Assembly (NCBI GenBank): GCA_945897315.1
Contig: CAMDFF010000001.1
Span: forward strand, 21,262 to 85,261
DNA length: 64,000 nucleotides
Direction of reading: 5' to 3'
Origin: a candidate division TM6 bacterium UASB124
GTDB taxonomy: Bacteria; Babelota; Babeliae; Babelales; RVW-14
Each line of letters starts with the position of its first letter. Within the stretch, counting starts at the first letter, position 1. Shown one piece after another: positions 7,231 to 64,000 of the stretch. The position numbers and the translations under genes were made by a program. Under the pieces are notes generated by a model. That model was not told where the DNA came from. It saw nothing but the letters and a program-made list of their open reading frames with translations, and did not search any database.

Positions 7231-7319
7231 TATGCCTAAAATCTGGATTTGCGATCTCTTTTGTAGTAAAGTGAAAGAAAATACAGCTTTTCACTATGCT
7301 TAGGAAAAAGAGGAAGCCG

Positions 7320-25464: not shown

Positions 25465-25474
25465 AGTAACCCCT

Positions 25475-29198: not shown

Positions 29199-29234
29199 AA
29201 TCGCTTCCTTAGAAAATAATTTTTAAACGATACA

Positions 29235-44574: not shown

Positions 44575-45699
44575 ATGGGAAAAATATTTTTAGCGCTGTT
44601 AATACATTGTAACATCGTAGCGTTAACCTCTGCGCCAGTATTTTTGAGGGTTAAGGACCCTGTTTTAAGTGTGTGGATTGCTCCCCATGAGCTTCAGGGA
44701 CCCTTTGAGTACCCGTCTTTTCGCAATCCACGCAAACCTGGCGCTGTGTCGCTCAAAACACATCTTACGCAGTTATTATACGGTGAATGTGTGATTTTTT
44801 TAGGGGGTGGGGATGGTGCGAGTGGTATGCTTCACATTAGTATCCCTTCGCAGTTGTACTGTAATCAGGTGACAAAAGCATGGGGCAGCACAGAGGGGTA
44901 TGCTCATGAGCGGCACTTTGCGATTTGTCGCGAGCAAGCGCTCGTCACCATGGTTGTGCAAGCGGTAACGGCACGCGTGCACGCTGAGCCATCAGAGCAA
45001 GGGGCTCTTCTCATATCTTTGCCGCTGGGGGCTGTCGTACAACATGCTACCCATGAAATCATTAATGGGTATGTAAAAATTACGCTGCTGGATGGTAATA
45101 GTGGTTTTATGCGCTGTTGTGATCTGCAGGTTATATCAGAGCATGTTGGCGACATAGCAATCTTGCGTAACGCACTCTGTGAAAACGCAAAAAAGCTGAT
45201 AGGTATGCCTTACTGCTGGGGAGGCCGCAGCCCCTTTTTTGGTGAAATTGGTGCTCGTTCTCAGAGTGATTATGCAATCCCAACAAGCGTTGACTGTTCC
45301 GGCGTTGTGAGCTTATTGATGCACAGTATTGGCCTTTTTGTGCCAAGAAATAGCACAGGGCAATATGCCGTTGCTACTGTGGTAGAGCCAGCAGCAATGC
45401 AGCCTGGTGACATTTTTTTTCTCCAATCAGAGCTGGCACACGTTTCAAATCATATGTTGATATACCTTGGGGATGGCTTAGTATTTGAGGCGCGAGGCTC
45501 AGATGGGTCTGCTTCAAGCGTTCGTGTATCCCCTATTGAAAAACGTTTTGGGATGCGTCTCGAGGCGCTTCGCAATAATGAATATATTGACAACACACAC
45601 AAAGCGCACCGGCTATTGTGTGGTAGTTTTTTTTCTAGTCAAGAAACAGTCCAGCATCGGCGCAATTCTTTTCTTCTTCATCTTGGACACGCTAACTAA
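44575..45699 (+). CDS. NlpC/P60 (C40) cell-wall peptidase with an N-terminal SH3-like region, paralog 1
   Basis: Signal peptide MGKIFLALLIHCNIVALTSA. Catalytic context PYCWGGRSPF...VDCSGVVSLLMHSIGL, with HMLIYLGDG as the His motif. Confidence 0.8.
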   Translation: MGKIFLALLIHCNIVALTSAPVFLRVKDPVLSVWIAPHELQGPFEYPSFRNPRKPGAVSLKTHLTQLLYGECVIFLGGGDGASGMLHISIPSQLYCNQVTKAWGSTEGYAHERHFAICREQALVTMVVQAVTARVHAEPSEQGALLISLPLGAVVQHATHEIINGYVKITLLDGNSGFMRCCDLQVISEHVGDIAILRNALCENAKKLIGMPYCWGGRSPFFGEIGARSQSDYAIPTSVDCSGVVSLLMHSIGLFVPRNSTGQYAVATVVEPAAMQPGDIFFLQSELAHVSNHMLIYLGDGLVFEARGSDGSASSVRVSPIEKRFGMRLEALRNNEYIDNTHKAHRLLCGSFFSSQETVQHRRNSFLLHLGHAN

Positions 45700-45768
45700 T
45701 TTTACTTGTCAGGTAGTTATGAGATGCTTTAGTCTGTGGCAGCCCAATAAATATCCAAGGAGATAGAA

Positions 45769-46917
45769 GTGATTATTGTCAGTGTTTTTTTTCTTCTGCT
45801 GGTTAATAGCGCTTTCTGTGCTGCTGTCGAGAGTCGACAGGTCTGTGTGGTTAAAGACCCTATCGCCAGCGTCTGGTCAACCCCACGGGAGGTCAGGGGC
45901 CCGTTTCGCTATCCCCTTGTGCCATCATGGCTACCTGCTGTTGCACAAGCGCACGAGGGAGCTGTTTCCTTGGCAACGCATGATTCACAGCTCTTGTATG
46001 GTGAGCATGTTACGATTCTTAAAAATTGTGGTTCGATGTACAAAGTGGCTATCCCGTCGCAATGTTCGTTTGATGGGAAAACAGCACAGCCTGCTGTAGG
46101 GTATGTGCAGAAGAAGCATCTTGTGCGATGCGCAATGTCTGCAGACTTGGCTACTTGGGTTGTACAAACAATAAAAGCACCAGTAGCAATACCACGGCAA
46201 AAACGCTTCTTGCCCTTTGGAGCAATTATACAGACAGGAGGGGTTGATTTTGTTGGGGACGATCATGTGGCGATAACATTGCTGAGCGGAAAACGTGGGA
46301 AAATTCATCTAGACGATGTGCGCTATGTTTTATCGGTGGTTGAAGATGCGAGCTCTTTGCGTGAAGCGGTGTGCATTAATGCTAAAAAATTTCTTGGCGT
46401 CCCGTACTGCTGGGGAGGGCGTAGCCCGTTTTTTGGTCGTATTGGCAGGGTGCCTGTCAGTAATTATTTGGTGCCATCAGGGGTTGATTGCTCGGGATTT
46501 ATTAGCCTGTTGATGCATAGTGTCGGCCTTATGGTGCCGCGTAATAGCGGGGCACAATATCTTTTTGCTAACCCTGTCGATCCTGCGGCTATGGAGCCAG
46601 GAGACGTGTTTTATATGGGCCCAACGGGTATGGGCTATCCACGGCACATCCTCATGTATTGTGGTTATGGAATGGTCATCGAAGCTGCTGGTGGTGATGG
46701 CGCAGCATCGTGTGTTTGTTTGTCCTCTGTTGAAAAACGATTTGGCCGGCCGCTTGCAGCGCTTGAAAACGGGATGGACATAGTTTCTGCTGGCAGGGGA
46801 CGAGCTTTTAAATTATATTGCGGCAGTTTTTTTAGGGATCCTGTCACATTGCAACAGATGAGAACAAATTTTTTAGCAAATATTGGACAAAACGCCAACG
46901 CTGAAAACGTTTATTAG
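45769..46917 (+). CDS. NlpC/P60 (C40) cell-wall peptidase with an N-terminal SH3-like region, paralog 2
   Basis: GTG start after AAGGAG. Signal peptide IIVSVFFLLLVNSAFCAA. PYCWGGRSPF...VDCSGFISLLMHSVGL, HILMYCGYG. Colinear with paralog 1. Confidence 0.8.
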   Translation: MIIVSVFFLLLVNSAFCAAVESRQVCVVKDPIASVWSTPREVRGPFRYPLVPSWLPAVAQAHEGAVSLATHDSQLLYGEHVTILKNCGSMYKVAIPSQCSFDGKTAQPAVGYVQKKHLVRCAMSADLATWVVQTIKAPVAIPRQKRFLPFGAIIQTGGVDFVGDDHVAITLLSGKRGKIHLDDVRYVLSVVEDASSLREAVCINAKKFLGVPYCWGGRSPFFGRIGRVPVSNYLVPSGVDCSGFISLLMHSVGLMVPRNSGAQYLFANPVDPAAMEPGDVFYMGPTGMGYPRHILMYCGYGMVIEAAGGDGAASCVCLSSVEKRFGRPLAALENGMDIVSAGRGRAFKLYCGSFFRDPVTLQQMRTNFLANIGQNANAENVY

Positions 46918-47364: not shown

Positions 47365-48546
47365 CTAAATATTTTCGATCAGAGACCCTGCGTCTTGCCA
47401 GCCCATAATTGTTCCAGCGCTATGCACTTGCGCTTGGTTGTTGCCACCATAAACCACATAGCTTTGCTCGCCAGTTTTTTCGGTAATTTCTTGCCATGCA
47501 ATGAGCTGATCAAAGTAATCGCTACTGATGGTGCTGCTAGACTTTATTTCTACAGGGACAAGTGTTACGCCAGTATTGATGAGGCAATCTACCTCGACGC
47601 GGCCATTTTGATCTCGCCAAAAATAGAGCGGGGGTGTGCGGCCAATATTGAGATATTGTTTATAGAGATCAGCGATTATAAAATTTTCAAATAAATGACC
47701 CCTAAAAGGACTTAGTGAGAGTGATTTGGTATCTGTAATGCCCAAGAGAGAACAGGCAAGGCCTGTATCATAAAAATAAAGCTTAGGGGTTTTGGTGACT
47801 CGTTTATTGAAATTATTGAAGTAGGGTGGCAACCTGAAAACAATATAACTTGCTTCTAGCACAGAAAGCCATGCCTCTACGCTTTCTCGGCTGATACCGC
47901 AATTTGTTGCAATATCGGCAATATTAAGTTGTTGTCCAGTTCTGCCTGCGCATAGCTCCATAAATTTTTGGAAAACAATTAAGTCTCCGACCTTGACTAA
48001 ATCGCGCACATCGCGCTCCAAGTAAGTGTGGATATATGAAGGGTAAAATGCTGCCGGGGCTATGTTTTCATCAAATATACGTGGGTAACAGCCACTGAAA
48101 ATCACGTCGTCAATATTATTTTTTTGCAGGTTATTACTTCGTAGCTCATGAATTGAAAACGGAAGCAGTGTTAAAATGCCAACGCGGCCAGCAAGCGACT
48201 GGGTAATTCGCTTGTTCATGAGAAAATTTTGCGACCCACTCAACACGAAATAACCTGGTCGTTTTTTACGATCTACTTCAAGTTGAACATATGAAAGCAA
48301 ATCGGGAACATACTGAAATTCGTCTAAGATAATACCATGTTCGTTTTCATGCATAGATAAAAATCGTTCTGGGTCATTAATTGCAAGGCTGCGCAATCTG
48401 GGATCCTCAAGGCAGAGGTACGCGTGCTTAGGGAATGTATTTATTGCCAGGGTAGTTTTCCCAGATTGACGAGGGCCCAAAAAGGCTACTACTGGAAATT
48501 TTACATATTCTTGTAATGAGTTAGCTAAGTCGCGCTTTAAAAACAT
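47365..48546 (-). CDS. AAA-type ATPase with a DUF4143-like C-terminal domain (copy 2)
   Basis: Walker A GPRQSGKTT and Walker B IILDEFQ. C-terminal KLYFYDTGLACSLLG...FRGHLFENFIIADL...LYFWRDQNGRVEVDCLI. Confidence 0.85.
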   Translation of the reverse strand: MFLKRDLANSLQEYVKFPVVAFLGPRQSGKTTLAINTFPKHAYLCLEDPRLRSLAINDPERFLSMHENEHGIILDEFQYVPDLLSYVQLEVDRKKRPGYFVLSGSQNFLMNKRITQSLAGRVGILTLLPFSIHELRSNNLQKNNIDDVIFSGCYPRIFDENIAPAAFYPSYIHTYLERDVRDLVKVGDLIVFQKFMELCAGRTGQQLNIADIATNCGISRESVEAWLSVLEASYIVFRLPPYFNNFNKRVTKTPKLYFYDTGLACSLLGITDTKSLSLSPFRGHLFENFIIADLYKQYLNIGRTPPLYFWRDQNGRVEVDCLINTGVTLVPVEIKSSSTISSDYFDQLIAWQEITEKTGEQSYVVYGGNNQAQVHSAGTIMGWQDAGSLIENI

Positions 48547-53921: not shown

Positions 53922-56306
53922 TTACGCCGTGTGCGTCTGTTGCGCGTGCTGAGCTCGAGCAAGCTTGCGGTCACGTTTTGCCTTCTCTAAAGACTCGCTG
54001 ACTTTGAAATAAGGGTCAAGGTGCACATTTACTGTTTTCGGTCGTGTGCGTCCATACGTAAAGTCATCAATAGGGCGTAAAATACCCTGAGCAGCATCAG
54101 CAAGTTTGCTCTTGATGGTTTGGTGTGCGGGCTTAAAATAAAAGCGCTGAATAGGATCTTTATCTTTAACGTAAGAATCATTTTTCATGATTTGGTATTT
54201 TGCGTAATCAAGTTTGAGCTGTGTGTATTCATCAGCGGTGCCGTCAAATTGTGGTTTCATAACGCTCGGCCGAATAAACACAAATAAGTTTGATTCTGTT
54301 TTCTTTTTATCTTTTGATTTAAAGAGCGATCCGAATAGTGGAATTTCGCTTAAGATAGGGGTTTTGTACGATGTTTCCGTAATTTTGCTTTTTTTTAGAC
54401 CACCAATAACCAGTACTTCACCTGTAGCCATTGATGTTTTAGTAATAATCTGGCGATCATTGGTGTCGGCGCCTTCTATCGCATCAGTTTGAAAATCAGT
54501 TGCTGTAACATCAATAGTAAGATCAACATTACCTGATAAATTTATATTGGGTGTAATCTTAATGGTTACACCTGCAGCGACCGGAGCGTATTTTTGTAGA
54601 GGATTATTTGTTTTGCTATAATCGATAGAATCTTTTACTTTGCGCCTCTCTTCAACGATTACGGTACATTCTTGATTATTATTAACTACTTGATAGGGCT
54701 GTGAGACCACTTGTGAGTTTTTAATGCTGAAGGTTGCTCGTATGAGTCCCCAGATATTGCCTGGCGTTGGAGTGGTGGTGCCGGCTTCTCCAAGAGAAAT
54801 AAAGCTAGATGAATCACGACTGGCCGCTGCGATGCTCAAATAGGGGGGAGTTGTAGATGTAGAGTTATTGTAGCGCGCTACGTCACCATTTAAATTTAAA
54901 AACTCAGCGTTTATGCCTGGACTGAAAGGTTTGCCTTTCAGGTTGAAAATTTGTGTCCCAAGGTTTCGAATCTGGTCAATGGAGACATCAACGATCATTG
55001 CTTCTATGGCTACTTGAGGTTGTGGCTTATCGAGCTTATCAATAAAACTTTCAAGCCTGCCCCAGTCATCATGATTCGCTGCAATAATTAATCGATTTCC
55101 GCTTCCTCTGCTGCCAGATGCTCCGTCGTCATCCTGCTCTGCTGCAATAATAACATCTTCAAATACTTTTATTCCGCCCTCGGTAATTAAGCTTTTTTCG
55201 GTAGCTGATCTTGGCAGCCTAATAATATCGTCTAAGATTGGTTTAATATCCTGAGCTCTGATATAGCGCAACTCTTTGATATGTAGCCGTGACGCGGCGT
55301 TGTCTATCGGGATATCAATATATTCTGAGATAAATTTTTTGATGCGATTAATATTTTTTTGCGTGCCCAAAAGAATGACCTTATTGCGAATCGGCTCAGG
55401 GATAATTTTTGTTTGGCGAGAAAAATACGTTGCTTCGCGTTGTGAAGCAATTCCTGAAAAACGAATGATGCGATCTTGTTGTGTATCGCCGGATGATCCT
55501 AAAACATCATCAAAAACTTTTTTGACATAGTCAGCATTGGTGAAAGAAAGGGGGATAATTTCTATTGCTTCTCGTAGTCCACCAAGGTCTAGCTCTTTAA
55601 TGATTTTAAAAGCTGCTTTAATGTTGAGGCTCGTATCTTTAATGACAATTGAGTTAAGGTCTTTGTTGTCAATTAAGCTTTTGCTATCAACCATTTTTTC
55701 TAAAATGCCTTTTGCGGTATCAGTTTTCATATTTTTTAAAAAATAAATATAGCGAATAACCGTATCGTTATCAGGTAAGTCTTCTGGTTGTGTGCCGCTA
55801 TATGATGAGTAAATCGGCAATACTTCTTGGCCGTTATGTTCTGTTTTTACTACACGATACATGTTGGGACCTTTTACCAAGCTAAAGCCATTTACTTCCA
55901 TGAGCGTGAGTAAAACATCCCATGCTTGCGGCATAGTCATAGCGTTTCGCGTGCTTAAGCTGACTTTAACGGCATCAAGATCTTTGTGCGGAATAACATT
56001 AATTTTTTTTTGCTCGCCAAGATAATTAAGAATGCTTGAGAGTGCTGCTCCTTCAAAATTAAGATAGATCGAAGACTCAAGTTTCTGGTGTTGTTGGGTG
56101 AGGGCAGGTATCTGGTTCGCTTGTGTAACAAGGGCTTCATCTGCAAGCAAAGGAATAGCTGATGCTGTTGATGTATTCCAGCTAATATCATCTGGAGGTG
56201 GGGGCGGGACTTGTTGTGCGTCAATAACTACATTAGGCGCTGCGGTGTGTGCTATTTTTACAACAAAAGAAGAAAGGCTTATAAGTAATAAAAATAATAT
56301 TTTCAT
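53922..56306 (-). CDS. Secretin, GspD-type (secretin B, 794 aa)
   Basis: Signal peptide. GspD-like N0 domain (IYLNFEGAALSSILNYLGEQKKINVIP...NMYRVVK). Repeated N-domains. C-terminal secretin core (TGEVLVIGGLKKSKITETSYKTPILSEIPLFGSLFKSKDKKKTESNLFVFIRPSVM). Confidence 0.85.
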   Translation of the reverse strand: MKILFLLLISLSSFVVKIAHTAAPNVVIDAQQVPPPPPDDISWNTSTASAIPLLADEALVTQANQIPALTQQHQKLESSIYLNFEGAALSSILNYLGEQKKINVIPHKDLDAVKVSLSTRNAMTMPQAWDVLLTLMEVNGFSLVKGPNMYRVVKTEHNGQEVLPIYSSYSGTQPEDLPDNDTVIRYIYFLKNMKTDTAKGILEKMVDSKSLIDNKDLNSIVIKDTSLNIKAAFKIIKELDLGGLREAIEIIPLSFTNADYVKKVFDDVLGSSGDTQQDRIIRFSGIASQREATYFSRQTKIIPEPIRNKVILLGTQKNINRIKKFISEYIDIPIDNAASRLHIKELRYIRAQDIKPILDDIIRLPRSATEKSLITEGGIKVFEDVIIAAEQDDDGASGSRGSGNRLIIAANHDDWGRLESFIDKLDKPQPQVAIEAMIVDVSIDQIRNLGTQIFNLKGKPFSPGINAEFLNLNGDVARYNNSTSTTPPYLSIAAASRDSSSFISLGEAGTTTPTPGNIWGLIRATFSIKNSQVVSQPYQVVNNNQECTVIVEERRKVKDSIDYSKTNNPLQKYAPVAAGVTIKITPNINLSGNVDLTIDVTATDFQTDAIEGADTNDRQIITKTSMATGEVLVIGGLKKSKITETSYKTPILSEIPLFGSLFKSKDKKKTESNLFVFIRPSVMKPQFDGTADEYTQLKLDYAKYQIMKNDSYVKDKDPIQRFYFKPAHQTIKSKLADAAQGILRPIDDFTYGRTRPKTVNVHLDPYFKVSESLEKAKRDRKLARAQHAQQTHTA

Positions 56307-56319
56307 GTTCCGGCCTTTA

Positions 56320-56871
56320 TCATTCTAAACTTGATTTGTAGCATTTTGTTGCCATGGTTACCGAAACTGCAATTTTTTTACTGGTGCCAGTTTTGATTTG
56401 TAGCTCTTTTAGGTAGACAATTTCTTCTTTATTGAGGGCATCAAGAATCTTGACCAATTTGTTCGACGTAAGATCTTTAAAGCGTGCTGTTAAAATAATC
56501 TCATCAAATATATCGCTAACGTGTTCAGCCGGGCGTGCAGCCCACCCTGTTTCTGCTGTAATGTTTTGATCACGGCAAAATTGTTCAAAAAATGCTTGGA
56601 TCGAGAATCCTCTTTTCTGTTCTAATAGGTTCTTTAGGCGCTGTTCATCTTTTGCTAGGCGCCGATTGCTATCAATAATATGACAGCTTTTAACTGCTAG
56701 CTTATTTAATATCTGCAGCTGAGAAATGAGATCATGTTTGCTGCTGTGAATGTAGTATAAAAGCATACTAGCAACTAGTATGATGCCGGCAAAAAAGGCA
56801 CATACGTGTAATCTAAAATTATGACGATCGAGCGCTTCGATATACCCAACAATTCTATTTAATGCTTCCAT
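56320..56871 (-). CDS. Bitopic inner-membrane protein, PilO/GspM-like
   Basis: 183 aa with a single N-terminal TM helix (HVCAFFAGIILVASMLLYYI), a coiled-coil-like segment and a small C-terminal domain. The gene sits between the PilMN/GspL-like gene (1-nt gap) and secretin B. The call rests on architecture and context. Confidence 0.45.
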   Translation of the reverse strand: MEALNRIVGYIEALDRHNFRLHVCAFFAGIILVASMLLYYIHSSKHDLISQLQILNKLAVKSCHIIDSNRRLAKDEQRLKNLLEQKRGFSIQAFFEQFCRDQNITAETGWAARPAEHVSDIFDEIILTARFKDLTSNKLVKILDALNKEEIVYLKELQIKTGTSKKIAVSVTMATKCYKSSLE

Positions 56872-56872
56872 G

Positions 56873-58546
56873 CTATTCGTCTCTTTGTATCATGTTAACA
56901 CTAAAATCTACCCCGCCCTCTGGTGCTGGGTTTTCGTTAAAATCAACAAACTTTAGCCCTTGTGCCGCTCTAAACCGTGCAATAAGTCCGGTGAAGTCTG
57001 CGAAGTGCTCGCCAGTTTTTGATTTAAATAAGCCATCAACTTCTAGCTTTGGCTTCCCATCATCTTTGGTGGCGATAGAAATTTCTTTGATAGTTACATC
57101 AAACTGTTTTTTATTAATAATAATCGTTAGCTGTAGCCATATCTCTAGGGCATTCATACGCGCTTGAGTGAAAGGGGCCCACAGATTATTTTTTTCTCTG
57201 ACAAAGCGTTCAGCCTCACGAATAACTTTTGTGAGCACCGGATTTTTGGGGAATTTATCTTTTGGGAAAATATTTTCACCCTTAAACTTATTTATTTCTC
57301 GTTGTTCTATCAGCGTGACTTCGTTCTGTAGATCACGTAAATCAAGATATCCTTTGAGGCCGATAATGATAAAGAGTAAGAGCGTAATGCCGCCAGCAAC
57401 AAGAAGTTGTTTTCTGGCCAGACTTTTTTGATGAAAAACAAATGTCTTGCGACGTAGATCAAAATCATAGTGTAAGGGATGGACAATTGCTGTTCCTAAG
57501 GCATAGGTAAATGCAGTCCAATTGTGTGGATCTTGTGCTATTTTTGTCTGTATTGTTTTAAGGGCAGTCATTTTTTGTGGTTCGAAAATAGCACAAGGGA
57601 TTTGCATGGTGGCGCTGCAAAACTCTACAAACCCTTTTACCTTCTGCAATGATCCAGTGAGCAAAATGCGACTAATTTCTTCGCTAAGCGCGAGTTTCAT
57701 GCTAAACGAGTTTAGCGTAAACTGGATGTCATTGACCAGAAGAGCGAAATGCTCCAGAGCACTTCTATTGAGCGCCTCACTGCCAAGAGAGTTTATGCCA
57801 AGTTGTGACAATTTTAGCTCAAGATCTTCCATCGATGTTTGTGTCTCGTCAGAAATTTGTTTTAAGACGCTTATCAAGCCCCGTGGCAAATGGCGCGTTA
57901 GTCTGAGTTCGCCGTTGCTAATTAAGGCTATGCGTACGGTATTGAGCCCAAGATCAACTAAGGCAACGGTTTGAGGTTGTCGGTTGCTTTCGCTAATAAA
58001 AGCAAACAGGCCATACTCTGCAAATAAATCGATAGTGATGCTCGTTGGATTGATATGTGCGGCGCTAAATATATCAAGATAGTCCGCTAAATCTTGATTT
58101 CGAATAGCAGCTACGAGTACTTGGGATGTTTGTGTTGCCGGGTCGCTTTTGGTGACTATAAAATCAATGATGGCATCTTTTGGCGAGAACGGCAGCATTG
58201 ATTCAACTTCATATTCAAGAACCATGCGTATTTTTTCATGATCAATAAAATGAAGAGAAATTTCTTTGAATACCACTAAGGATGATGGTACGGCCACTCG
58301 AATTTCATCGGCATTTTTTAATACGGCGGATGTCTGAGTTAGGGCCTCAATGGTGCGTTCTTTCTGTGTCTCTTGGGGTCCTGGCGTCAATGGAAATTCG
58401 ACAAGAGATTCAAGTATTGTTTTTCGACTTTTTGCGTATACAACGGCAATACGCACAGCATCGTCATGAACAGTAATGCCAATAATACGTTCTGAGAGGA
58501 GTCGACGAGTGCCGATGCGATCAGGTAAAAAGAGTGCTTTCAGCAT
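56873..58546 (-). CDS. PilM-PilN fusion / GspL-like assembly-platform protein
   Basis: 557 aa. An approximately 380-aa cytoplasmic region has a PilM-like beginning (IIGITVHDDAVRIAVVY...VALVDLGLNTVRIALI), followed by one TM helix (LLVAGGITLLLFIIIGL) and an approximately 150-aa periplasmic domain. Confidence 0.55.
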   Translation of the reverse strand: MLKALFLPDRIGTRRLLSERIIGITVHDDAVRIAVVYAKSRKTILESLVEFPLTPGPQETQKERTIEALTQTSAVLKNADEIRVAVPSSLVVFKEISLHFIDHEKIRMVLEYEVESMLPFSPKDAIIDFIVTKSDPATQTSQVLVAAIRNQDLADYLDIFSAAHINPTSITIDLFAEYGLFAFISESNRQPQTVALVDLGLNTVRIALISNGELRLTRHLPRGLISVLKQISDETQTSMEDLELKLSQLGINSLGSEALNRSALEHFALLVNDIQFTLNSFSMKLALSEEISRILLTGSLQKVKGFVEFCSATMQIPCAIFEPQKMTALKTIQTKIAQDPHNWTAFTYALGTAIVHPLHYDFDLRRKTFVFHQKSLARKQLLVAGGITLLLFIIIGLKGYLDLRDLQNEVTLIEQREINKFKGENIFPKDKFPKNPVLTKVIREAERFVREKNNLWAPFTQARMNALEIWLQLTIIINKKQFDVTIKEISIATKDDGKPKLEVDGLFKSKTGEHFADFTGLIARFRAAQGLKFVDFNENPAPEGGVDFSVNMIQRDE

Positions 58547-58548
58547 GG

Positions 58549-61299
58549 CTAACTCCCACCTAGCATGGCAGATGTGCTGGTGTTGTTTTGTACTGTTGCA
58601 GGACTAGCAGCCAAAAATTCTTTAAGACTATTACGCTTGTTTGGATCAACAATAAGGTCAAAAGATGTTTCCTGCGCAGGGATTATCTTTGCTGGATCGC
58701 CAGGGACTGAAGAAGGCGGGGCTTCTTGGGCAGGAGTCGCCAAAATCCGTCGTAGCTCTAGCCGTTGGGCATCTAAAGAGGGATCGTTATTATTGGTAAC
58801 TATTGGTGCATGAAGCGGCGGTATTATGATTGCATCTGTTGTTGGATCCAAGGGGGTTGGTGTGGGGGCTACTGGAATGAGAGGGGCTTGTTGCCCATAA
58901 GCATATTCTATCTGTGATGCTTCAGGAGCTGCTGTGATGTGCGGTGGCAATACTGCTTCAAGTACAGATTGTTTTTTTGTTTGATCATGACGCTCTGTTG
59001 TTTGGTCATCATCGACTGCACTGCGATAGAAAGAGTCATTTTTAATATCTACCGTGGTTGGCTGGTAGCGAGCATTAGCAAAATCAATAACCTTGTGAGA
59101 GTAGTTTTCTTTTTCTGCATTGAAGTACCAGTTATGCACAGGATCAATGGTGCGCTTAGTTTCGACTGCGTCTTCAACGCTCGCTGTTGCCTCGTGAAGT
59201 TTCATCTTGGTGTACAGATTCATACCAGGCGTTTCGCGAGGTTTGACGATAGTAGGAGCAAGAAATACAAAAATATACTGTTTAAGAATGGTACGATTTT
59301 GATTTTTAAAGAACCAGCCAATAAGAGGAATTTTCCCTAAAAGAGGCGTTTCATCTTTACTTTCAGCAACGCTTGTCTTAATAAAACCACCCAGAGCTAA
59401 TACTTGGCCATCAGCAACCGTTACTTTTGATGCTAAAGTTTGATTGCTTATATTGTCACCAGATAAGTCGAGAAAATCTTCAATGACAATGTTAATTTTC
59501 ATGCGAATAATGCCATCTAGGTTTATTTGAGGGGTAATTTCTACAGATGTTGTAGCCTTAACATCCTTGAAACTCTGTGGTGCAGAGGGGTCTCCGCTGC
59601 CAGTGTTTTCATATGATACTCGCTTGCTTTCGCCAACAGTAATGGTGCCCTTTGTTTTATTGGCAACGGTAATAAATGGCTGAGATAAAACTGAGCTATT
59701 GTCTTGCGTTTTGAGCGCTCGGAGAGCTCCCCAAATAGTGTTTTTCCCAAAAGACAAAACAGTTGCGCCAGTAGCCGATGTGAGTTGTCCAAGCATGTTT
59801 CCTAATAAACTAACAGGGCTGTTTTCGTCACCCTCTAATGATAATTTGCCTGAAATCGAAGCAGATTGAAAATCGATGTTTTTGCCAAGTTGTCCATGTT
59901 TTTTATTACGAACAGCGCCGCCCAATTGATTAATTTCGCTAGCATTAATACTAACAATCATGCTTTCAATAGCGACTTGTGGTTGTGGTTTGTCCAAATC
60001 AATAATTGTTTTTTTCACAAGCTCCCAGTCTTGCGGATCTGGGCAGTTAGCAATGAGTCTGTTACCATCTTTGTCGATATTAAAAGTCATGCTTTTGAAA
60101 TATTTTACTCCACCGCGAATAGCCCCGTATTTTCCGGCAACTTGCCCCGTTGCAGAGTCAGGCTGAGCGGTAACGAGCTTTAAAATTTCCATCACCTGGG
60201 CAGCATCAATATGCTGTAGCTCGTAGATATGTAACGGTGATTTTGCTGCTTTAAGGTCAGTGTCGATATGATTGCTGATAAAATCAATAACCTTGTCTAC
60301 CGATTTTTTTGTCCCAAGTAAAATTAGTGAATTGCTACGTTCTTCAGCGATAACCCGTGTTGTGGCAGAAAAATATTCAGTGCTGCCCTCAGTTGTTTTG
60401 CCCAGTAAGCGCGCAAGAGGGTTAGTGTCTGGTTTTTGAATGAGAGCATCCAATAGCGTTTTTGCGTCAGCAGCATTAATGCGCTTCAGCCGCATTACCG
60501 TAACATTTTCTGGTGTACCCATGCTGTCGAGCTCGTGCAGCAGTTTGACCGCAGAGCGAATATTAAGTGCCTTATCGGTAATGACAAAAGCATTCATTTC
60601 TTTGTTTTCATAAATTGCATTTGGTTGGCTGAGCATGCTTTCTAGGAGAGGCTGCACATCGGTTGTTGGAATATTTGATAAAAAGAAAACATAGCGAATG
60701 GTGAGATCATTATCCGGTAATTTTTCGTAGGGAGTATTTATAAAAGCGGGCAACGGCTGTTGGATTTTTTTATCTTTGGGTACAACTTTGTGCACAAGGC
60801 CGGTTTTAACAATACTAAACCCAGACATTTCTAGTACGGTAATGAAGACATTCCATGCGCCGGTTACAGATAAGGGATCGCGAATGGTGAGTGATATTTT
60901 TGACCCCTCAATTGATTTATCAAGAAGGATATTAAGTTTTTTAAGCTCGGCTATATAATCAATGAAATTTGCTAAGTCAGTGTTTTCAAAATTAAGATAA
61001 ATATTTTTTTTCTCGTCGTCTTGGGAAAGGGCCGCGCTCTCTTCTCCTGTTGAAGGATTGTCTAAGGAAGGTGTGCTGCTGAGCTGAATTGATGATGTTC
61101 TAGCGCTGATCATTTGATCCATAGGGACAGGTGGAAGCGTCACGCCAGGCTGCGTAGTCATTGGTTGCGAAGGATCAAGTTGTTGCACGTTGTTTTGCAT
61201 CTGTGAAGGAGGAAGCACGCCTGCACGCAATGTTTGATCAATGCTAGAGCACATTATGCTAAAGCACCATACATGTAACAGCCAGTAAAATAGTGACAT
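58549..61299 (-). CDS. Secretin, GspD-type (secretin A, 916 aa) with a Pro-rich C-terminal extension
   Basis: N0 domain (IYLNFENTDLANFIDYIAELKKLNILL...LVHKVVPK). Secretin core (DGQVLALGGFIKTSVAESKDETPLLGKIPLIGWFFKNQNRTILKQYIFVFLAPTIV). About 190 aa of extra low-complexity P/T/A-rich C-terminus. Confidence 0.85.
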   Translation of the reverse strand: MSLFYWLLHVWCFSIMCSSIDQTLRAGVLPPSQMQNNVQQLDPSQPMTTQPGVTLPPVPMDQMISARTSSIQLSSTPSLDNPSTGEESAALSQDDEKKNIYLNFENTDLANFIDYIAELKKLNILLDKSIEGSKISLTIRDPLSVTGAWNVFITVLEMSGFSIVKTGLVHKVVPKDKKIQQPLPAFINTPYEKLPDNDLTIRYVFFLSNIPTTDVQPLLESMLSQPNAIYENKEMNAFVITDKALNIRSAVKLLHELDSMGTPENVTVMRLKRINAADAKTLLDALIQKPDTNPLARLLGKTTEGSTEYFSATTRVIAEERSNSLILLGTKKSVDKVIDFISNHIDTDLKAAKSPLHIYELQHIDAAQVMEILKLVTAQPDSATGQVAGKYGAIRGGVKYFKSMTFNIDKDGNRLIANCPDPQDWELVKKTIIDLDKPQPQVAIESMIVSINASEINQLGGAVRNKKHGQLGKNIDFQSASISGKLSLEGDENSPVSLLGNMLGQLTSATGATVLSFGKNTIWGALRALKTQDNSSVLSQPFITVANKTKGTITVGESKRVSYENTGSGDPSAPQSFKDVKATTSVEITPQINLDGIIRMKINIVIEDFLDLSGDNISNQTLASKVTVADGQVLALGGFIKTSVAESKDETPLLGKIPLIGWFFKNQNRTILKQYIFVFLAPTIVKPRETPGMNLYTKMKLHEATASVEDAVETKRTIDPVHNWYFNAEKENYSHKVIDFANARYQPTTVDIKNDSFYRSAVDDDQTTERHDQTKKQSVLEAVLPPHITAAPEASQIEYAYGQQAPLIPVAPTPTPLDPTTDAIIIPPLHAPIVTNNNDPSLDAQRLELRRILATPAQEAPPSSVPGDPAKIIPAQETSFDLIVDPNKRNSLKEFLAASPATVQNNTSTSAMLGGS

Positions 61300-61327
61300 A
61301 TTTCTTCTTCCTCAAATTCAGTCGCGT

Positions 61328-62482
61328 TTAGGCAGGGGGTCTTTGCTGGTGTAATCGGTCGTGTAATCCTTCAAGGATACGACGTCTTATCTCCATCATA
61401 GTCTGCTGATTTTTCTGTGGATTTACATGCTGATGTTGAAATTCACGTACAGTTGCTTCTCGTTGCTGGATACGATTCATTTTCATTGTTTCATCCGGAG
61501 TAGGTTTTTCAGTAGCATAACGCACCCCTGGAAACATTGATTTGCGAGGCTTGTTAATTCTAGCAAGTTTATACGATAAGAGAATATCTTTATCTGCTCG
61601 GCGGATGCTTACATCTACATTGCTGCCAAGGGGGAGCTGTATAACCGCTTCATAAGCAGCGAGCCTGGCTTCGGGCTGGCCAATAGCAATACCATTTATG
61701 GAAACAATGATGTCATTTTCACTAAGTCCAAGGGCTGTTGCAACATCATTAGGATTAATACTGCTGACGCGTAAGCCAATTGATTTTCCATCGTGAAAGG
61801 CGCTGCCAATAATGCCAGAACGCTCTATGAAGTTGCCAAGGGTACTTACTTCTTTGCTAAAGGCTTCAGGGTCTAGATCAAAAGTTTGCTCACTGGTTTT
61901 TTTAACAATGTGTTGCCACTTTTCTAAAGGCTTGTCTTCAAGAGGCATGTCGTCTTTGCGTAAATAAAAAGTTTCTTGCTGCCCATTGGCCCTGAGTAAA
62001 ACGATCCGATTATGAGCTATTTTAATGAGCTGGGCATCTTTTATTTTCTCTCCCAGATGGTACATACCTTCTTTGTTGGCTTCGTCAGCGATCATTGCAA
62101 CATTGCGATCTTCATCACTCCCTGCAATTACCCCTTTGAGCGTTATAGTGAGCGCGGCAATAAATTCTTGCTTTTCAACTTTTGGTAGAGCAGGAATGAC
62201 TACTTGCTTTTGCTCTGGAACAGGTGTTACAAGGCTTTGCTTAACCGCTTTTGTTTCTTGCGCTGTATACGTACCGAAAAGATCATCTAGGTAGATTTTT
62301 TCCCAGGTAAGATCATTTGTTGGAGTTGCATTTAGCGTAGATGTTACGGTTGTATCTTGTAGTAGGGCTAGCTTTGGTGTGCGCCATAGAGGCACTACGG
62401 GATCAAAGGCATGATATGCGCTTATAATCGCCGTAACAACTAGTAATAATGAACTATTAACCAACCACAAGTCTTGTTTCAT
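61328..62482 (-). CDS. GspC-like protein (TM helix, HR domain, PDZ domain)
   Basis: N-terminal TM helix (LVNSSLLLVVTAIISAY). HR-like domain (LKGVIAGSDEDRNVAMIADEANKEGMYHLGEKIKDAQLIKIAHNRIVLLRANGQQETF). PDZ domain (GLRVSSINPNDVATALGLSENDIIVSINGIAIG). Confidence 0.7.
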   Translation of the reverse strand: MKQDLWLVNSSLLLVVTAIISAYHAFDPVVPLWRTPKLALLQDTTVTSTLNATPTNDLTWEKIYLDDLFGTYTAQETKAVKQSLVTPVPEQKQVVIPALPKVEKQEFIAALTITLKGVIAGSDEDRNVAMIADEANKEGMYHLGEKIKDAQLIKIAHNRIVLLRANGQQETFYLRKDDMPLEDKPLEKWQHIVKKTSEQTFDLDPEAFSKEVSTLGNFIERSGIIGSAFHDGKSIGLRVSSINPNDVATALGLSENDIIVSINGIAIGQPEARLAAYEAVIQLPLGSNVDVSIRRADKDILLSYKLARINKPRKSMFPGVRYATEKPTPDETMKMNRIQQREATVREFQHQHVNPQKNQQTMMEIRRRILEGLHDRLHQQRPPA

Positions 62483-62566
62483 AAACCCGTACCCTTTTGC
62501 TAAAGAACGAAGATACTTTTAGATCTTCTAGTCTGTCAAGCCAGAAGAAGATCTAACTGCTTTTGC

Positions 62567-63544
62567 CTATGGTGCTGGAATTGTACGCAATAATATTTGA
62601 ATTATCGCATCAGTGTTTAAGCCATCAGCTTCTGCCTCATAAGAAACAGTAATGCGGTGTCGCAAAACATCGGGTGCAATTGCTTTAATATCGTCTGGAA
62701 TAACGAAATGGCGCTTTTTTAAAAAAGCATATGCTTTTGCTGCATAGGTGAGTGCAAGCGTGGCGCGCGGGGATGCACCAAAAGCAATGGCATTTTGTAG
62801 GCTATCTAATTTATAATCACGGGGGTTTCTTGTTGCAAAAACCAAGCTTAAAATATAATCGAGAACTTTGTCATCCATGTAGACATCTTTTATTAGCGCC
62901 TGTGCTTCTATTATCTCGCTTGCCTGCAAAACAGTAGAAACAGTCTGGTGACTAAATGATTTTGTGACGACTTCTTTCTCTTCTGCAAGTTTTGGATATG
63001 TCAGCAATACTTTGAACATGAAGCGATCAAGCTGAGCTTCTGGAAGGCGATAGGTCCCTTCTTGATCGATAGGATTTTGTGTTGCTAAAACCAAGAACGG
63101 CTCGTCAAGATGGTGCGTAAAATCACCAATGGTCACTTGGTGCTCTTGCATTGCTTCCAGCAGGGCAGATTGCACTTTTGCTGGCGCACGGTTAATTTCA
63201 TCGGCAAGAATTATCTGAGCAAAGATAGGCCCTTTTTTAACCTGAAACTCTTGTGTTTTTTGGTTGTAAATAAGAGTTCCTACAACATCAGCAGGAAGAA
63301 GATCAGGAGTAAATTGTATGCGCTGAAAAGAAAGACTAATGGCCTGCGCAATGGTTTTAATCAGTGTTGTTTTTGCAAGTCCTGGGACGCCTTCCAGGAG
63401 AATGTGCCCTGAGGTAAGGAGTCCAATGAAAATGCGATCGATCACATGATCCTGGCCAACGATAACCTTACGGATTTCATTTTTTAACTCAGACCAACGT
63501 GCGCTTTTTTCTTTAATTAAATCAGCAGAAACGGTTGTTGTCAT
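62567..63544 (-). CDS. MoxR-family AAA+ ATPase
   Basis: Walker A GVPGLAKTT, Walker B and following region ILADEINRAPAKVQSALLEAMQE, and the typical MoxR C-terminus. Confidence 0.9.
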   Translation of the reverse strand: MTTTVSADLIKEKSARWSELKNEIRKVIVGQDHVIDRIFIGLLTSGHILLEGVPGLAKTTLIKTIAQAISLSFQRIQFTPDLLPADVVGTLIYNQKTQEFQVKKGPIFAQIILADEINRAPAKVQSALLEAMQEHQVTIGDFTHHLDEPFLVLATQNPIDQEGTYRLPEAQLDRFMFKVLLTYPKLAEEKEVVTKSFSHQTVSTVLQASEIIEAQALIKDVYMDDKVLDYILSLVFATRNPRDYKLDSLQNAIAFGASPRATLALTYAAKAYAFLKKRHFVIPDDIKAIAPDVLRHRITVSYEAEADGLNTDAIIQILLRTIPAP

Positions 63545-63558
63545 GGTAACCCTCTTGA

Positions 63559-64000
63559 TTAATGCAAAACAATATGCAATTTATGCATAGTATCATGTAA
63601 TGTGTCTACAGAAATATTTAAATATTCAGCAAGCTGATGAATATCATAGCGGTATTTTTTGAGTAAATGAGATACATATTCGCGTTGAAACTCTTGTGTT
63701 GCGCCATCAATCGAATCAAAGCGTGTGTATGATTGCTCTTCAAAAAATGAAGAGGGACTCTCTGGAAGCAGTCTTTTTAGGTATACAGAGTCAAGAACTG
63801 TTGGCATAGGGCTTGCCTGGGCGACAAGGTTTTCTGTGAAGTGTTTAATTTGTGCAACGTCCCCTGTCCATTGATGATTGCGCAAGAGGCGGATAGCATC
63901 TGGAGAAAGTGTTATCTGTTTGCTGTTTATTTTGTTAGCTTCTGCAATAAAACTACTAACTAGTCGTGGAACATCATAGCGTCGTTTAGTAATGGCGGCT
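63559..64000 (-). CDS. C-terminal part of a sigma-54-activator-like (NtrC/PilR-type) AAA+ regulator with a Fis-type HTH (runs off the window end)
   Basis: The reading frame stays open to position 64000 (my translation: AAITKRRYDVPRLVSSFIAEANKINSKQITLSPDAIRLLRNHQWTGDVAQIKHFTENLV...). The pattern 'ls.eA...L..y.WpGNVrEL.n' is recognisable but degenerate. C-terminal HTH: YDIHQLAEYLNISVDTLHDTMHKL. Confidence 0.55.
   Translation of the reverse strand, partial: AAITKRRYDVPRLVSSFIAEANKINSKQITLSPDAIRLLRNHQWTGDVAQIKHFTENLVAQASPMPTVLDSVYLKRLLPESPSSFFEEQSYTRFDSIDGATQEFQREYVSHLLKKYRYDIHQLAEYLNISVDTLHDTMHKLHIVLH

What the first reader, a model, noticed from the sequence alone, without database searches (positions are those of the whole stretch)
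53922..62482. Dual-secretin T2SS-like envelope module (GspC - secretin A - PilMN/GspL-like - PilO/GspM-like - secretin B) without ATPase, platform or pseudopilin genes
Five minus-strand genes are packed with gaps of 1-28 nt, which indicates one operon. In transcription order they are a GspC-like TM-HR-PDZ protein, a 916-aa GspD-type secretin with a long Pro-rich tail, a 557-aa PilM+PilN-type fusion (functionally GspL-like), a 183-aa PilO/GspM-like bitopic protein and a second 794-aa GspD-type secretin. Canonical T2SS operons run C-D-E-F-G-H-I-J-K-L-M with one secretin, and T4aP operons run pilMNOPQ. Here the E/F/pseudopilin block is absent and the platform genes sit between two paralogous secretins that both have GspD-type N0 domains. 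Possible explanations are a hetero-oligomeric or alternating outer-membrane pore, two pores sharing one inner-membrane platform, or a hybrid T2SS/T4P machine. I know of no described system with this gene order.
Basis: partly seen in the sequence, partly recalled or inferred. Interest (0 to 1): 0.7.

Follow-up and report, generated by a model that had tools for sequence, protein, structure and literature searches.

The report
Two-secretin secretion operon of Dependentiae
This is a real five-gene operon, conserved in all 45 related loci of the parasitic phylum Dependentiae (TM6) examined, that encodes the envelope-spanning parts of a type II secretion / type IV pilus-like machine with two old paralogous outer-membrane pores, while the motor and pilin genes appear to lie elsewhere in the genome.

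Summary
Five tightly packed minus-strand genes encode a GspC-like protein, a 916-aa GspD-type secretin (SecA), a PilM–PilN fusion, a PilO/GspM-fold protein and a 794-aa GspD-type secretin (SecB).

The window comes from a Dependentiae (TM6/Babeliales) bacterium. The same gene order occurs in all 45 related species-representative loci and in a more distant ~540-aa PilMN lineage. A conserved promoter, TTGACA-N18-TATCTT, sits in front of gspC.

SecA and SecB are collinear paralogs (32% identity). Each forms its own clade and they were co-inherited (mirror-tree r = 0.95), so the duplication predates the sampled radiation.

No ATPase, platform or pseudopilin gene lies in the window or within 10 kb in any locus. 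This is genome scatter, not a motor-less machine. Published COG counts for Babela and TM6SC1 give 2 PulE, 2 PulF, 1 PulO and 1 PilM. The Dependentiae PulF is an orphan gene.

"Two gspD copies in all TM6 genomes" was already noted in 2016. I found no description of the operon architecture.

Most likely there are two specialised pores: SecA coupled to GspC for secretion, and SecB as a second outlet. Both would be served by the single PilMN/PilO platform.

This is a new variant of a known kind, of moderate interest.

The parts
62510..62539 (-). Sigma-70-type promoter TTGACA-N18-TATCTT in the 84-nt MoxR/gspC spacer
   Evidence: Best-scoring promoter-like site in 53-64 kb (10/12). TTGACN-N18-TA(T/C)xxT with invariant 18-nt spacing occurs in 30 of 34 orthologous spacers.
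62519..62556 (.). 11-nt perfect inverted repeat (TTAGATCTTCT / AGAAGATCTAA) bracketing the -35 hexamer. Candidate operator or hairpin.
   Evidence: Relative L002 has a 15-nt version with different inner bases that keep complementarity.
61328..62482 (-). GspC-like protein: N-terminal TM, HR (T2SSC) domain, PDZ domain, ~80-aa C-terminal extension
   Evidence: Pfam T2SSC 4e-13 and PDZ_6/PDZ_2. NCBIfam GspC_delta 2.5e-26, but 93 bits is below the 150-bit cut-off. Present in the same position in the related loci.
58549..61299 (-). Secretin A (916 aa): signal peptide, low-complexity linker, N0, N1-N3, secretin domain, conserved ~70-aa C-terminal extension, disordered tail
   Evidence: best PDB match is full-length T2SS GspD 5wln, 5.9e-39. 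Hallmark motifs GG and PLLGKIPLIGWFF are visible. Conservation profile.
58552..59022 (-). SecA-specific Pro-rich, poorly conserved tail (residues ~760-916) carrying the short motif KRNSLKEFL (nt 58612-58638)
   Evidence: The motif KRxxLK[ED]F[LI] occurs 1-4 times in 32/40 SecA orthologs and 0/34 SecB.
56873..58546 (-). PilM-PilN fusion (architecturally GspL-equivalent): actin-like cytoplasmic domain 1-355, TM + coiled coil 374-423, periplasmic ferredoxin-like domain 466-554
   Evidence: The start usually overlaps the SecA stop by 4 nt in relatives.
56320..56871 (-). PilO/GspM-fold bitopic protein (183 aa)
   Evidence: No HMM hit. AF2 model plus Foldseek gives PilO 2rjz/5uvr, EpsM 1uv7 and Amuc_1100.
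53922..56306 (-). Secretin B (794 aa): signal peptide, N0, N1-N3, secretin domain, conserved C-terminal extension, short basic tail
   Evidence: best PDB match is full-length GspD 5zdh, 2.2e-35. 32% identical and collinear with SecA over residues 68-768.
62567..63544 (-). MoxR-type AAA+ ATPase immediately upstream. Conserved neighbour; membership in the system is unproven.
   Evidence: Pfam AAA_3 3e-67. Upstream of gspC in most loci, with a constant ~80-90-nt spacer. The wider region is also syntenic.
63559..64000 (-). 3' end of a REC + Sigma54_activ_2 + HTH response-regulator gene cut by the window end

Best explanation
The five genes form one operon, transcribed from a conserved sigma-70-type promoter in front of gspC. 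It encodes the non-motor, envelope-spanning parts of the type IV-filament-class machinery of a Dependentiae (TM6) bacterium. These parts are a GspC-like connector (TM-HR-PDZ), a PilM-PilN fusion that occupies the GspL position, a PilO/GspM-fold partner, and two anciently duplicated GspD-type secretins.

The energising and filament parts are encoded at scattered loci elsewhere in the genome. These are the GspE/PilB ATPases, the GspF/PilC platforms, the prepilin peptidase and the (pseudo)pilins.

The two secretins most likely assemble into two separate homo-oligomeric outer-membrane pores with different jobs. SecA would be coupled to GspC through its N0 domain and act as the T2SS-type outlet for the many Sec-exported effectors of these parasites. 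SecB would be a second outlet, probably standing in for the missing PilQ for a pilus-like filament. Both would rely on the single PilMN/PilO alignment complex of the genome.

Shown: gene content, folds, operon conservation, the age of the paralogy, and absence of motor genes from the locus. Inferred: separate pores, division of labour, and a shared platform.
For: - Identity and anatomy.
- Organism: source names Candidatus Babeliales/Dependentiae/TM6; record titles.
- Conservation: the same order GspC-SecA-PilMN-p183-SecB occurs in all 45 loci and in a more distant ~540-aa PilMN lineage.
- Junctions: typically -4, 1-4 and 3-30 nt.
- Promoter: TTGACN-N18-TATCTT in 30/34 spacers.
- Ancient paralogy: SecA vs SecB is 32% identical and collinear. 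NJ bootstrap is 99/100 for each clade (excluding one deep genome) and 87/100 for A+B against E. coli GspD/HofQ. Mirror-tree r = 0.95 over 30 genomes.
- Divergence between the two pores: SecB evolves faster in every domain. The disordered tail with the repeated KRxxLK[ED]F[LI] motif is SecA-only. GspC-HR distances track SecA-N0 (partial Mantel r = 0.39, p = 4e-4) but not SecB-N0 (r = -0.14, p = 0.82).
- Motor genes elsewhere: none in the window or within +/-10 kb in 45 loci. Babela/TM6SC1 COG counts are PulE 2/2, PulF 2/2, PulO 1/1, PilM 1/1, PulD 3/2, PilT 0/0 (PMC4378268 Additional file 11). The Dependentiae T2SSF gene is isolated.
- Literature: T2SS is the only secretion system found in Babela. 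Two gspD and no pilQ occur in all TM6 genomes.
Against: - No experiment or structure exists for any Dependentiae secretin.
- The genome of this window could not be searched beyond 64 kb. A second GspL/M/C or a PilP elsewhere is therefore not excluded for this organism. The PilM = 1 count comes from two other genomes and from COG assignment only.
- Both secretins are in one operon and so are co-expressed. This gives no transcriptional basis for alternate use.
- Both are GspD-type by architecture, and neither looks like PilQ (no AMIN domain; PilQ models score lower).
- No pili were seen on Babela by EM.
- Partial Mantel tests on phylogenetically related sequences are known to be liberal, and the N0 domains are short.
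Confidence: 0.5

Rival explanations
1. There is a single T2SS with two alternative secretins and no pilus. The one C/L-like/M-like platform docks to either SecA or SecB pores. The pores differ in gating, substrate class, localisation or assembly pathway. A comparable case, from my own knowledge, is the orphan secretin XqhA, which can stand in for XcpQ in Pseudomonas aeruginosa.
For: - The operon contains exactly one canonical set C + L-equivalent + M-equivalent, plus one extra D.
- Both secretins have the full GspD architecture N0-N3 + secretin, and GspD is the best model and best PDB match for both.
- T2SS is the only secretion system reported in Babela, and no pili were seen.
- About 44% of the proteins in Chromulinavorax carry signal peptides, so export demand is high.
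Against: - Two PulE/PilB-type ATPases and two PulF/PilC-type platforms per genome suggest two filament machines rather than one.
- PilV/PilE-type pilins are annotated in Babela.
- GspC-HR co-varies only with SecA-N0, which argues against equivalent docking of both pores to GspC.
Confidence: 0.25
2. Two independent machines are simply encoded side by side. gspC-gspD would be the outer half of a T2SS. pilM/N-pilO-secretin would be the alignment complex plus secretin of a T4P-like pilus, in the order of pilMNO(P)Q, mshIJ(K)L or Akkermansia Amuc_1101-1098. No components are shared.
For: - The order is exactly gspC-gspD followed by pilM(N)-pilO-secretin.
- The cytoplasmic domain is PilM-like, not GspL-like (4e-25 vs 1e-9).
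- There are weak NCBIfam hits to Amuc_1101 and Amuc_1098, and a Foldseek hit of p183 to Amuc_1100.
- GspC tracks SecA only.
- There are two E and two F genes per genome.
Against: - Each half would be incomplete. The T2SS half has no GspL/GspM, and the T4P half has no PilP. Only one PilM-family gene is counted in Babela and TM6SC1.
- The supposed boundary between the two halves (SecA stop / PilMN start) is the tightest junction of the operon, with a 4-nt overlap in most genomes.
- There is no internal conserved promoter.
- SecB is a sister paralog of SecA, not a PilQ-type secretin.
Confidence: 0.15
3. SecA and SecB co-assemble into one hetero-oligomeric, or two-layer stacked, outer-membrane channel.
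For: - The two have been strictly co-inherited and co-transcribed since before the radiation of the sampled lineages.
- The secretin domains of the two paralogs show a residual distance correlation (partial r = 0.46).
- The C-terminal extension (~residues 690-760) is conserved in both.
Against: - As far as I know, no hetero-oligomeric secretin has been described, and none was found in the literature search.
- At 32% identity, with different evolutionary rates, a SecA-only tail and different coupling to GspC, the two look like distinct assemblies.
- From my own knowledge, solved T2SS secretins are C15 rings, an odd number that is incompatible with strict alternation.
Confidence: 0.07
4. This is a self-contained envelope module that works without any GspE/F/pseudopilin-type motor, which is the literal reading of the first-stage title.
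For: No motor or pilin gene lies in the window or within 10 kb in 45 genomes. A MoxR AAA+ ATPase is a conserved upstream neighbour.
Against: - Dependentiae genomes do encode PulE, PulF, PulO and pseudopilins elsewhere.
- From established knowledge, the PilM/GspL-type cytoplasmic domain exists to bind such motors.
- MoxR is separated from gspC by the conserved promoter, and the whole neighbourhood is syntenic (TIM-SecG-MlaEF upstream, LOG-DeoC-DapF downstream). Its conservation is therefore not specific to the module.
Confidence: 0.03

Closest known systems
Canonical type II secretion system (gspC-M/O operons of Klebsiella, Vibrio, E. coli; compared here with E. coli K-12 gspC-O)
   Same: GspC with HR + PDZ. 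GspD-type secretin with N0, N1-N3 and secretin domain. A bitopic L-position protein with an actin-like cytoplasmic domain and a ferredoxin-like periplasmic domain. An M-position bitopic protein of the same fold. gspC is immediately followed by gspD.
   Different: - There are two secretins instead of one.
- E, F, G-K and O are absent from the locus and scattered in the genome.
- The L-position protein is a full PilM-type domain rather than the reduced GspL cytoplasmic domain.
- All NCBIfam equivalog scores fall below their cut-offs (GspD 286/270 vs 351; GspC_delta 93 vs 150).
- The secretins carry a conserved ~70-aa C-terminal extension, and SecA also has a long disordered tail.
Type IVa pilus alignment subcomplex plus secretin (pilMNOPQ; E. 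coli hofMNOPQ)
   Same: The order M, N, O, secretin. The PilM fold (Foldseek E = 4e-25, TM 0.74-0.76 to PilM structures). The PilO fold for the 183-aa protein. A PilN-like N-terminal 'FLP' peptide motif.
   Different: - PilM and PilN are fused.
- There is no PilP; GspC is the only HR-type protein.
- The secretins are GspD-type (four N domains, no AMIN) and score lower on the PilQ model (145/133 bits vs cut-off 284).
MSHA pilus mshI-J-K-L block (from my own knowledge: MshI is a PilM/PilN-type fusion, MshJ is PilO-like, MshL is the secretin)
   Same: A fused M/N protein, followed by an O-like protein, then a secretin.
   Different: Not tested here beyond the weak TIGR02519 MshL hits (76-80 bits vs cut-off 250). 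There is no MshK/PilP equivalent. A second secretin and a GspC are present.
Akkermansia Amuc_1098-Amuc_1102 type IV pilus-like cluster
   Same: A long PilM-like protein with a membrane segment (Amuc_1101 family hit 3.9e-13). A PilO-fold protein (Foldseek hits to Amuc_1100 6lad/6kny). A secretin (Amuc_1098 family hit ~1e-13).
   Different: All scores are far below the family cut-offs (49 vs 650 bits; 48-50 vs 750 bits). The Akkermansia cluster has a single secretin and no GspC.
Orphan or alternative secretins serving an existing T2SS (P. aeruginosa XqhA replacing XcpQ; from my own knowledge)
   Same: More than one GspD-type secretin is available to one inner-membrane platform.
   Different: In Pseudomonas the second secretin is an unlinked orphan and a recent, dispensable back-up. 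Here both are in the same operon, diverged long ago, and are retained in every locus examined.

Membership tests
Type II secretion system (Gsp) | Outer-membrane secretin GspD with N0-N3 and a C-terminal secretin domain | tested here: met
   Both SecA and SecB hit Pfam N0, Secretin_N and Secretin above gathering scores (SecB N0 is borderline: 26.9 vs 27). TIGR02517 aligns end to end. The best PDB relatives are full-length GspD. NCBIfam equivalog cut-offs are not reached (286 and 270 vs 351).
Type II secretion system (Gsp) | GspC with a TM, HR domain and PDZ (or coiled coil) next to gspD | tested here: met
   T2SSC 49.8 bits (cut-off 27) and PDZ. GspC_delta aligns 5-309/311 but is below its cut-off.
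Type II secretion system (Gsp) | GspL and GspM assembly-platform proteins | tested here: inconclusive
   The architecture and folds match, but the cytoplasmic domain is PilM-type. The TIGR01709 GspL hit is only E = 0.01. Some orthologs carry a precomputed PF05134 T2SSL hit. p183 matches both PilO and EpsM folds.
Type II secretion system (Gsp) | GspE ATPase, GspF platform, pseudopilins GspG-K and prepilin peptidase in the same genome | not testable with these tools
   Absent from the window and from +/-10 kb in 45 loci. The rest of this genome is not available. Relatives have them according to PMC4378268 Additional file 11.
Type II secretion system (Gsp) | One secretin per system | tested here: not met
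   Two paralogous secretins sit in the operon in every locus examined.
Type IVa pilus machine (PilMNOPQ) | PilM actin-like protein, with PilN and PilO bitopic partners | tested here: met
   PilM_2 85 bits (cut-off 27). Foldseek top hits are PilM structures. The periplasmic domain and p183 have the PilN/PilO ferredoxin-like fold. PilM and PilN are fused here.
Type IVa pilus machine (PilMNOPQ) | PilP lipoprotein linking PilNO to PilQ | tested here: not met
   There is no ORF between p183 and SecB (13-nt gap). The only HR-type protein is GspC. HofP tblastn gave no hit.
Type IVa pilus machine (PilMNOPQ) | PilQ-type secretin (AMIN domains, N0-N1 only) | tested here: not met
   TIGR02515 PilQ scores are 145 and 133 vs cut-off 284 and cover the secretin part only. 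The GspD model fits full length. Yeoh et al. also report pilQ absent in TM6.
Amuc_1098/1101 pilus-like cluster (Verrucomicrobia) | NCBIfam equivalog scores for Amuc_1098_fam and Amuc_1101_fam | tested here: not met
   48-50 bits vs 750, and 49 bits vs 650.

The most novel reading that the evidence does not exclude
A single inner-membrane alignment complex (GspC + PilM-N fusion + PilO-like) may be shared by two different secretin pores, and possibly by two different ATPase/platform motors. That would make a dual-outlet type IV-filament machine, combining T2SS-type effector secretion and a pilus-like function in a minimal-genome intracellular parasite. In the more extreme form, the two secretins would build one hetero-oligomeric channel. 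Neither arrangement has been described for any characterised T2SS or T4P.
Probability: 0.3. Interest if true: 0.75.

Novelty: new variant of a known kind. Interest (0 to 1): 0.5.

Why it matters
Dependentiae are obligate parasites of protists with tiny genomes. A T2SS-type apparatus is the only secretion system reported in them, although they export hundreds of candidate effectors, including ankyrin-repeat proteins with signal peptides. The machine encoded here is therefore probably central to how the phylum infects its hosts.

A two-secretin operon retained since before the radiation of the sampled lineages suggests both pores are needed. It gives a natural system for two questions: how one PilM/N/O-GspC platform chooses between two outer-membrane outlets, and how T2SS and T4P functions can be merged or divided in a minimal genome.

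It also clarifies annotation. These genes are variously named PilM, GspL or hypothetical in public records. The locus lacks E/F/G because the system is scattered, so tools that require co-localisation may miss or split it.

Tried and rejected
- Looked for the window's own contig through exact-protein look-up, to inspect the rest of the genome. It is not on record.
- HMM identification of the 183-aa protein failed with the single sequence and with a 33-member profile (Pfam, NCBIfam, PDB sequences). Only the fold comparison worked.
- I suspected that the 398-aa pair and the 542-aa ORF at 28-32 kb might be GspF/GspE. They are BCAA transporters and GroEL.
- A 'GPTGSGKT' Walker motif upstream in L002 looked like GspE. 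It belongs to the REC-AAA+-HTH response regulator.
- Sigma-54 promoter in the gspC spacer: no TGGCAC-N5-TTGC-like site on inspection. The conserved element is sigma-70-like.
- MoxR as part of the system: not adopted. It lies upstream of the conserved promoter, and the whole neighbourhood is syntenic.
- Literature: the McLean 2013 TM6 paper is not held. The Yeoh supplementary table is not held. No paper on dual-secretin operons or on Babelota T2SS architecture was found.
- GspC PDZ binding to the SecA tail motif or C-terminus was considered but is only an idea. Mirror-tree values for the PDZ domain are near zero.

Full report
**1. Observation**

The gaps between them are 28, 2, 1 and 13 nt.

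Profile searches confirm four of the five assignments directly.
- The first protein has a T2SSC (HR) domain and a PDZ domain. It aligns over its whole length to the NCBIfam GspC_delta model.
- Both large proteins have a GspD-type N0 domain, Secretin_N repeats and a Secretin domain. They align end to end with the GspD model TIGR02517 (E = 7.6e-85 and 4.1e-80).
- The 557-aa protein matches PilM_2 over 336 of 340 model positions.

None of the NCBIfam equivalog cut-offs is reached. These are divergent members at the domain and family level, not close orthologs of characterised proteins.

The 183-aa protein has no sequence-level match, even with a 33-sequence profile. An AlphaFold model built from 12 homologs (pLDDT 80) shows an N-terminal TM helix continuing into a coiled coil, then an alpha-beta-beta-alpha-beta-beta domain. 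Its best structural matches are PilO of P. aeruginosa and M. xanthus and EpsM (GspM) of V. cholerae.

The model of the 557-aa protein (pLDDT 81) has three parts: a complete actin-like domain at 1-355, a TM/coiled coil, and a periplasmic ferredoxin-like domain. The cytoplasmic part is much closer to PilM (E = 4e-25, TM 0.74-0.76) than to the reduced GspL/EpsL cytoplasmic domain (1e-9, rank 37). 'PilM+PilN fusion in the GspL position' is therefore an accurate description.

**2. Source organism and conservation**

Homologs of the fusion protein carry source names such as Candidatus Babeliales, Candidatus Dependentiae and candidate division TM6. A scan of one genome per GTDB species returned 45 loci with those record titles.

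In every locus long enough to judge, the order is GspC - SecA - PilMN - p183 - SecB. It is usually preceded by a MoxR AAA+ ATPase and a response regulator. A search of 1.84 billion cluster representatives found 384 relatives at E <= 1e-30. One member of a more distant, ~540-aa tier again showed MoxR - GspC - secretin - PilMN - 187-aa protein - secretin.

Gene junctions are tight throughout. SecA/PilMN typically overlap by 4 nt, PilMN/p183 are 1-4 nt apart, and p183/SecB are 3-30 nt apart. The MoxR/gspC spacer stays at ~80-90 nt.

That spacer carries the best sigma-70-like site of the region in the window, TTGACA-18-TATCTT. The same element, always with an 18-nt spacing, is present in 30 of 34 orthologous spacers. 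I take this as good evidence for a five-gene transcription unit starting at gspC. In the window the -35 hexamer lies inside an 11-nt perfect inverted repeat, a candidate operator.

**3. The two secretins**

SecA and SecB are collinear from N0 to a conserved ~70-aa extension beyond the secretin domain (32% identity). Both keep the hallmark secretin motifs.

In a neighbour-joining tree of 40 SecA, 34 SecB, E. coli GspD and HofQ:
- each paralog forms its own clade (99/100 bootstraps each, leaving out one very deep genome);
- the two together separate from the outgroups (87/100);
- the pairwise distances of the two paralogs across 30 genomes correlate at r = 0.95.

The duplication therefore predates the sampled Dependentiae radiation, and both copies have been inherited together since. 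They are not equivalent.
- SecB evolves faster in every domain.
- SecA alone has a long, Pro-rich, poorly conserved tail. The tail carries 1-4 copies of a short motif, KRxxLK[ED]F[LI], in 32 of 40 SecA orthologs and in none of 34 SecB.
- After controlling for MoxR and PilM distances, the GspC HR domain co-varies with the N0 domain of SecA (partial Mantel r = 0.39, p = 4e-4) but not with that of SecB (r = -0.14, p = 0.82).

The last result is only suggestive. The domains are short, and partial Mantel tests are liberal on related sequences.

**4. The missing motor**

No GspE, GspF, pseudopilin or prepilin-peptidase gene is in the 64-kb window. This rests on a Pfam survey of all ORFs of 150 aa or more, a prepilin motif scan and tblastn with E. 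coli proteins. None lies within 10 kb of the module in any of the 45 loci either.

This reflects scattering, not absence. The COG table of Pagnier et al. 2015 (PMC4378268, Additional file 11) gives these counts for Babela massiliensis / TM6SC1:

| COG family | Babela | TM6SC1 |
|---|---|---|
| PulD | 3 | 2 |
| PulE/PilB | 2 | 2 |
| PulF | 2 | 2 |
| PulG | 3 | 0 |
| PulO | 1 | 1 |
| PilM | 1 | 1 |
| PilT | 0 | 0 |

The Babela PulF gene and its relatives in other Dependentiae contigs stand alone among unrelated genes. I could not inspect the rest of the genome that this window comes from.

**5. What is already known**

- Yeoh et al. 2016 (PMC4776705) state that T2SS, and possibly type IV pilus, components belong to the TM6 core. 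They report that pilQ is absent and that two gspD copies are present in all genomes. They suggest one copy may have replaced pilQ and call this an open question.
- Pagnier et al. predict that the T2SS is the only secretion system of Babela.
- Deeg et al. [quoted passage not shown]

I found no paper that describes the operon, its order, the fused PilMN, the PilO-fold protein, the promoter or the divergence between the two secretins. The 'two secretins' fact is therefore not new. The architecture and its universality among the loci examined appear to be undescribed.

**6. Mechanism**

The operon holds exactly one canonical set of T2SS envelope parts (C, an L-equivalent, an M-equivalent and D), plus a second D. 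Two more facts bear on the mechanism: there are two E and two F genes per genome but only one PilM-family gene in the two genomes with published counts, and SecA and SecB have clearly diverged.

The reading I favour (about 0.5) is two separate homo-oligomeric pores. SecA would be coupled to GspC as the T2SS-type outlet for Sec-exported effectors. SecB would be a second outlet, possibly for a pilus-like filament. Both would depend on the single PilMN/PilO platform.

The rivals are:
- one T2SS with two alternative pores and no pilus (0.25);
- two independent machines that merely sit side by side (0.15). Against this, each half would lack essential partners, and the supposed boundary is the tightest junction of the operon;
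- a hetero-oligomeric or stacked pore (0.07);
- a truly motor-less module (0.03).

None of these can be settled without complex prediction, biochemistry or cryo-ET.

**7. Verdict**

The domain calls, the operon and the unusual order are right. The 'no ATPase/platform/pseudopilin' framing overstates the case, and the dual secretin had been noted in passing in 2016.
- This is a new variant of a known kind (T2SS/T4P-class machinery). It is conserved across all the Dependentiae loci examined and is probably central to a poorly studied group of intracellular parasites.
- Interest is 0.5.

Noticed in passing
window 63559-64000 (-): The ORF listed as 108 aa is really the C-terminal end of a ~400-450-aa response regulator that runs off the window end. 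Its domains are REC, a degenerate Sigma54_activ_2 AAA+ domain with Walker A GPTGSGKT, and an HTH. It lies upstream of MoxR in most related loci.
   Followed up: partly
window 62519-62529 and 62546-62556: An 11-nt perfect inverted repeat brackets the -35 hexamer of the conserved gspC promoter. Relative L002 (6005-6040) has a 15-nt version whose inner bases differ but stay complementary. It could be an operator for a dimeric regulator or a hairpin ending the MoxR transcript.
   Followed up: partly
window 58612-58638 (SecA residues 888-896) and SecA tails in loci L001-L044: A short linear motif, KRxxLK[ED]F[LI], is repeated 1-4 times in the otherwise unconserved, Pro-rich C-terminal tail of SecA (32/40 orthologs). 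It is never found in SecB (0/34). Many tails also end in a basic stretch plus R(S/G)LA. The binding partner is unknown.
   Followed up: partly
window 58502-58546 (PilMN residues 1-15): The N-terminus of the PilM-PilN fusion, M[IL]Kx[IL]FLPEKIG, has F6 and P8 invariant and L7 nearly invariant. It resembles the PilN N-terminal peptide that binds the PilM groove (E. coli HofN: MNPPINFLPWR). The PilM domain may therefore be inserted between the PilN peptide and the PilN TM segment.
   Followed up: no
loci L050 (10001-11164), L051 (10001-11200), L052 (1934-3133): The Dependentiae T2SSF/PulF platform gene is an orphan. It is preceded by a conserved PF1765-like (COG1872) gene, and no ATPase, pilin or secretin gene lies within 10 kb. 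The parts of the system are scattered around these genomes.
   Followed up: partly
loci L001-L045, +/-10 kb around the module: The whole neighbourhood is syntenic across the phylum: TIM - SecG - MlaE - MlaF - response regulator - MoxR upstream, and convergent LOG-like - DeoC - DapF - PALP enzyme downstream. Conservation of MoxR next to gspC is therefore not by itself evidence of a functional link.
   Followed up: partly
window 44575-46917; 28002-30431; 7296-8447 and 47365-48546: There are three pairs of paralogs: two tandem NlpC/P60 proteins, two tandem 398-aa branched-chain amino-acid transporters, and two AAA_14/DUF4143 ATPases.
   Followed up: no
window 21868-25575 (-) and 38448-39461 (+): A 1235-aa protein matches a family only in its C-terminal ~185 residues (an MscS-type channel domain). 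Separately, there is an ankyrin-repeat protein, the class of candidate effectors typical of Dependentiae.
   Followed up: no
window 39465-40832 (-) vs 40555-42858 (-): The LpxK ORF as listed (TTG start, 455 aa) overlaps the IF-2 gene by ~280 nt. The Pfam match starts at residue 113, so the real start is probably further downstream. LpxK indicates that lipid A synthesis, and hence an outer membrane for the secretins, is present.
   Followed up: no
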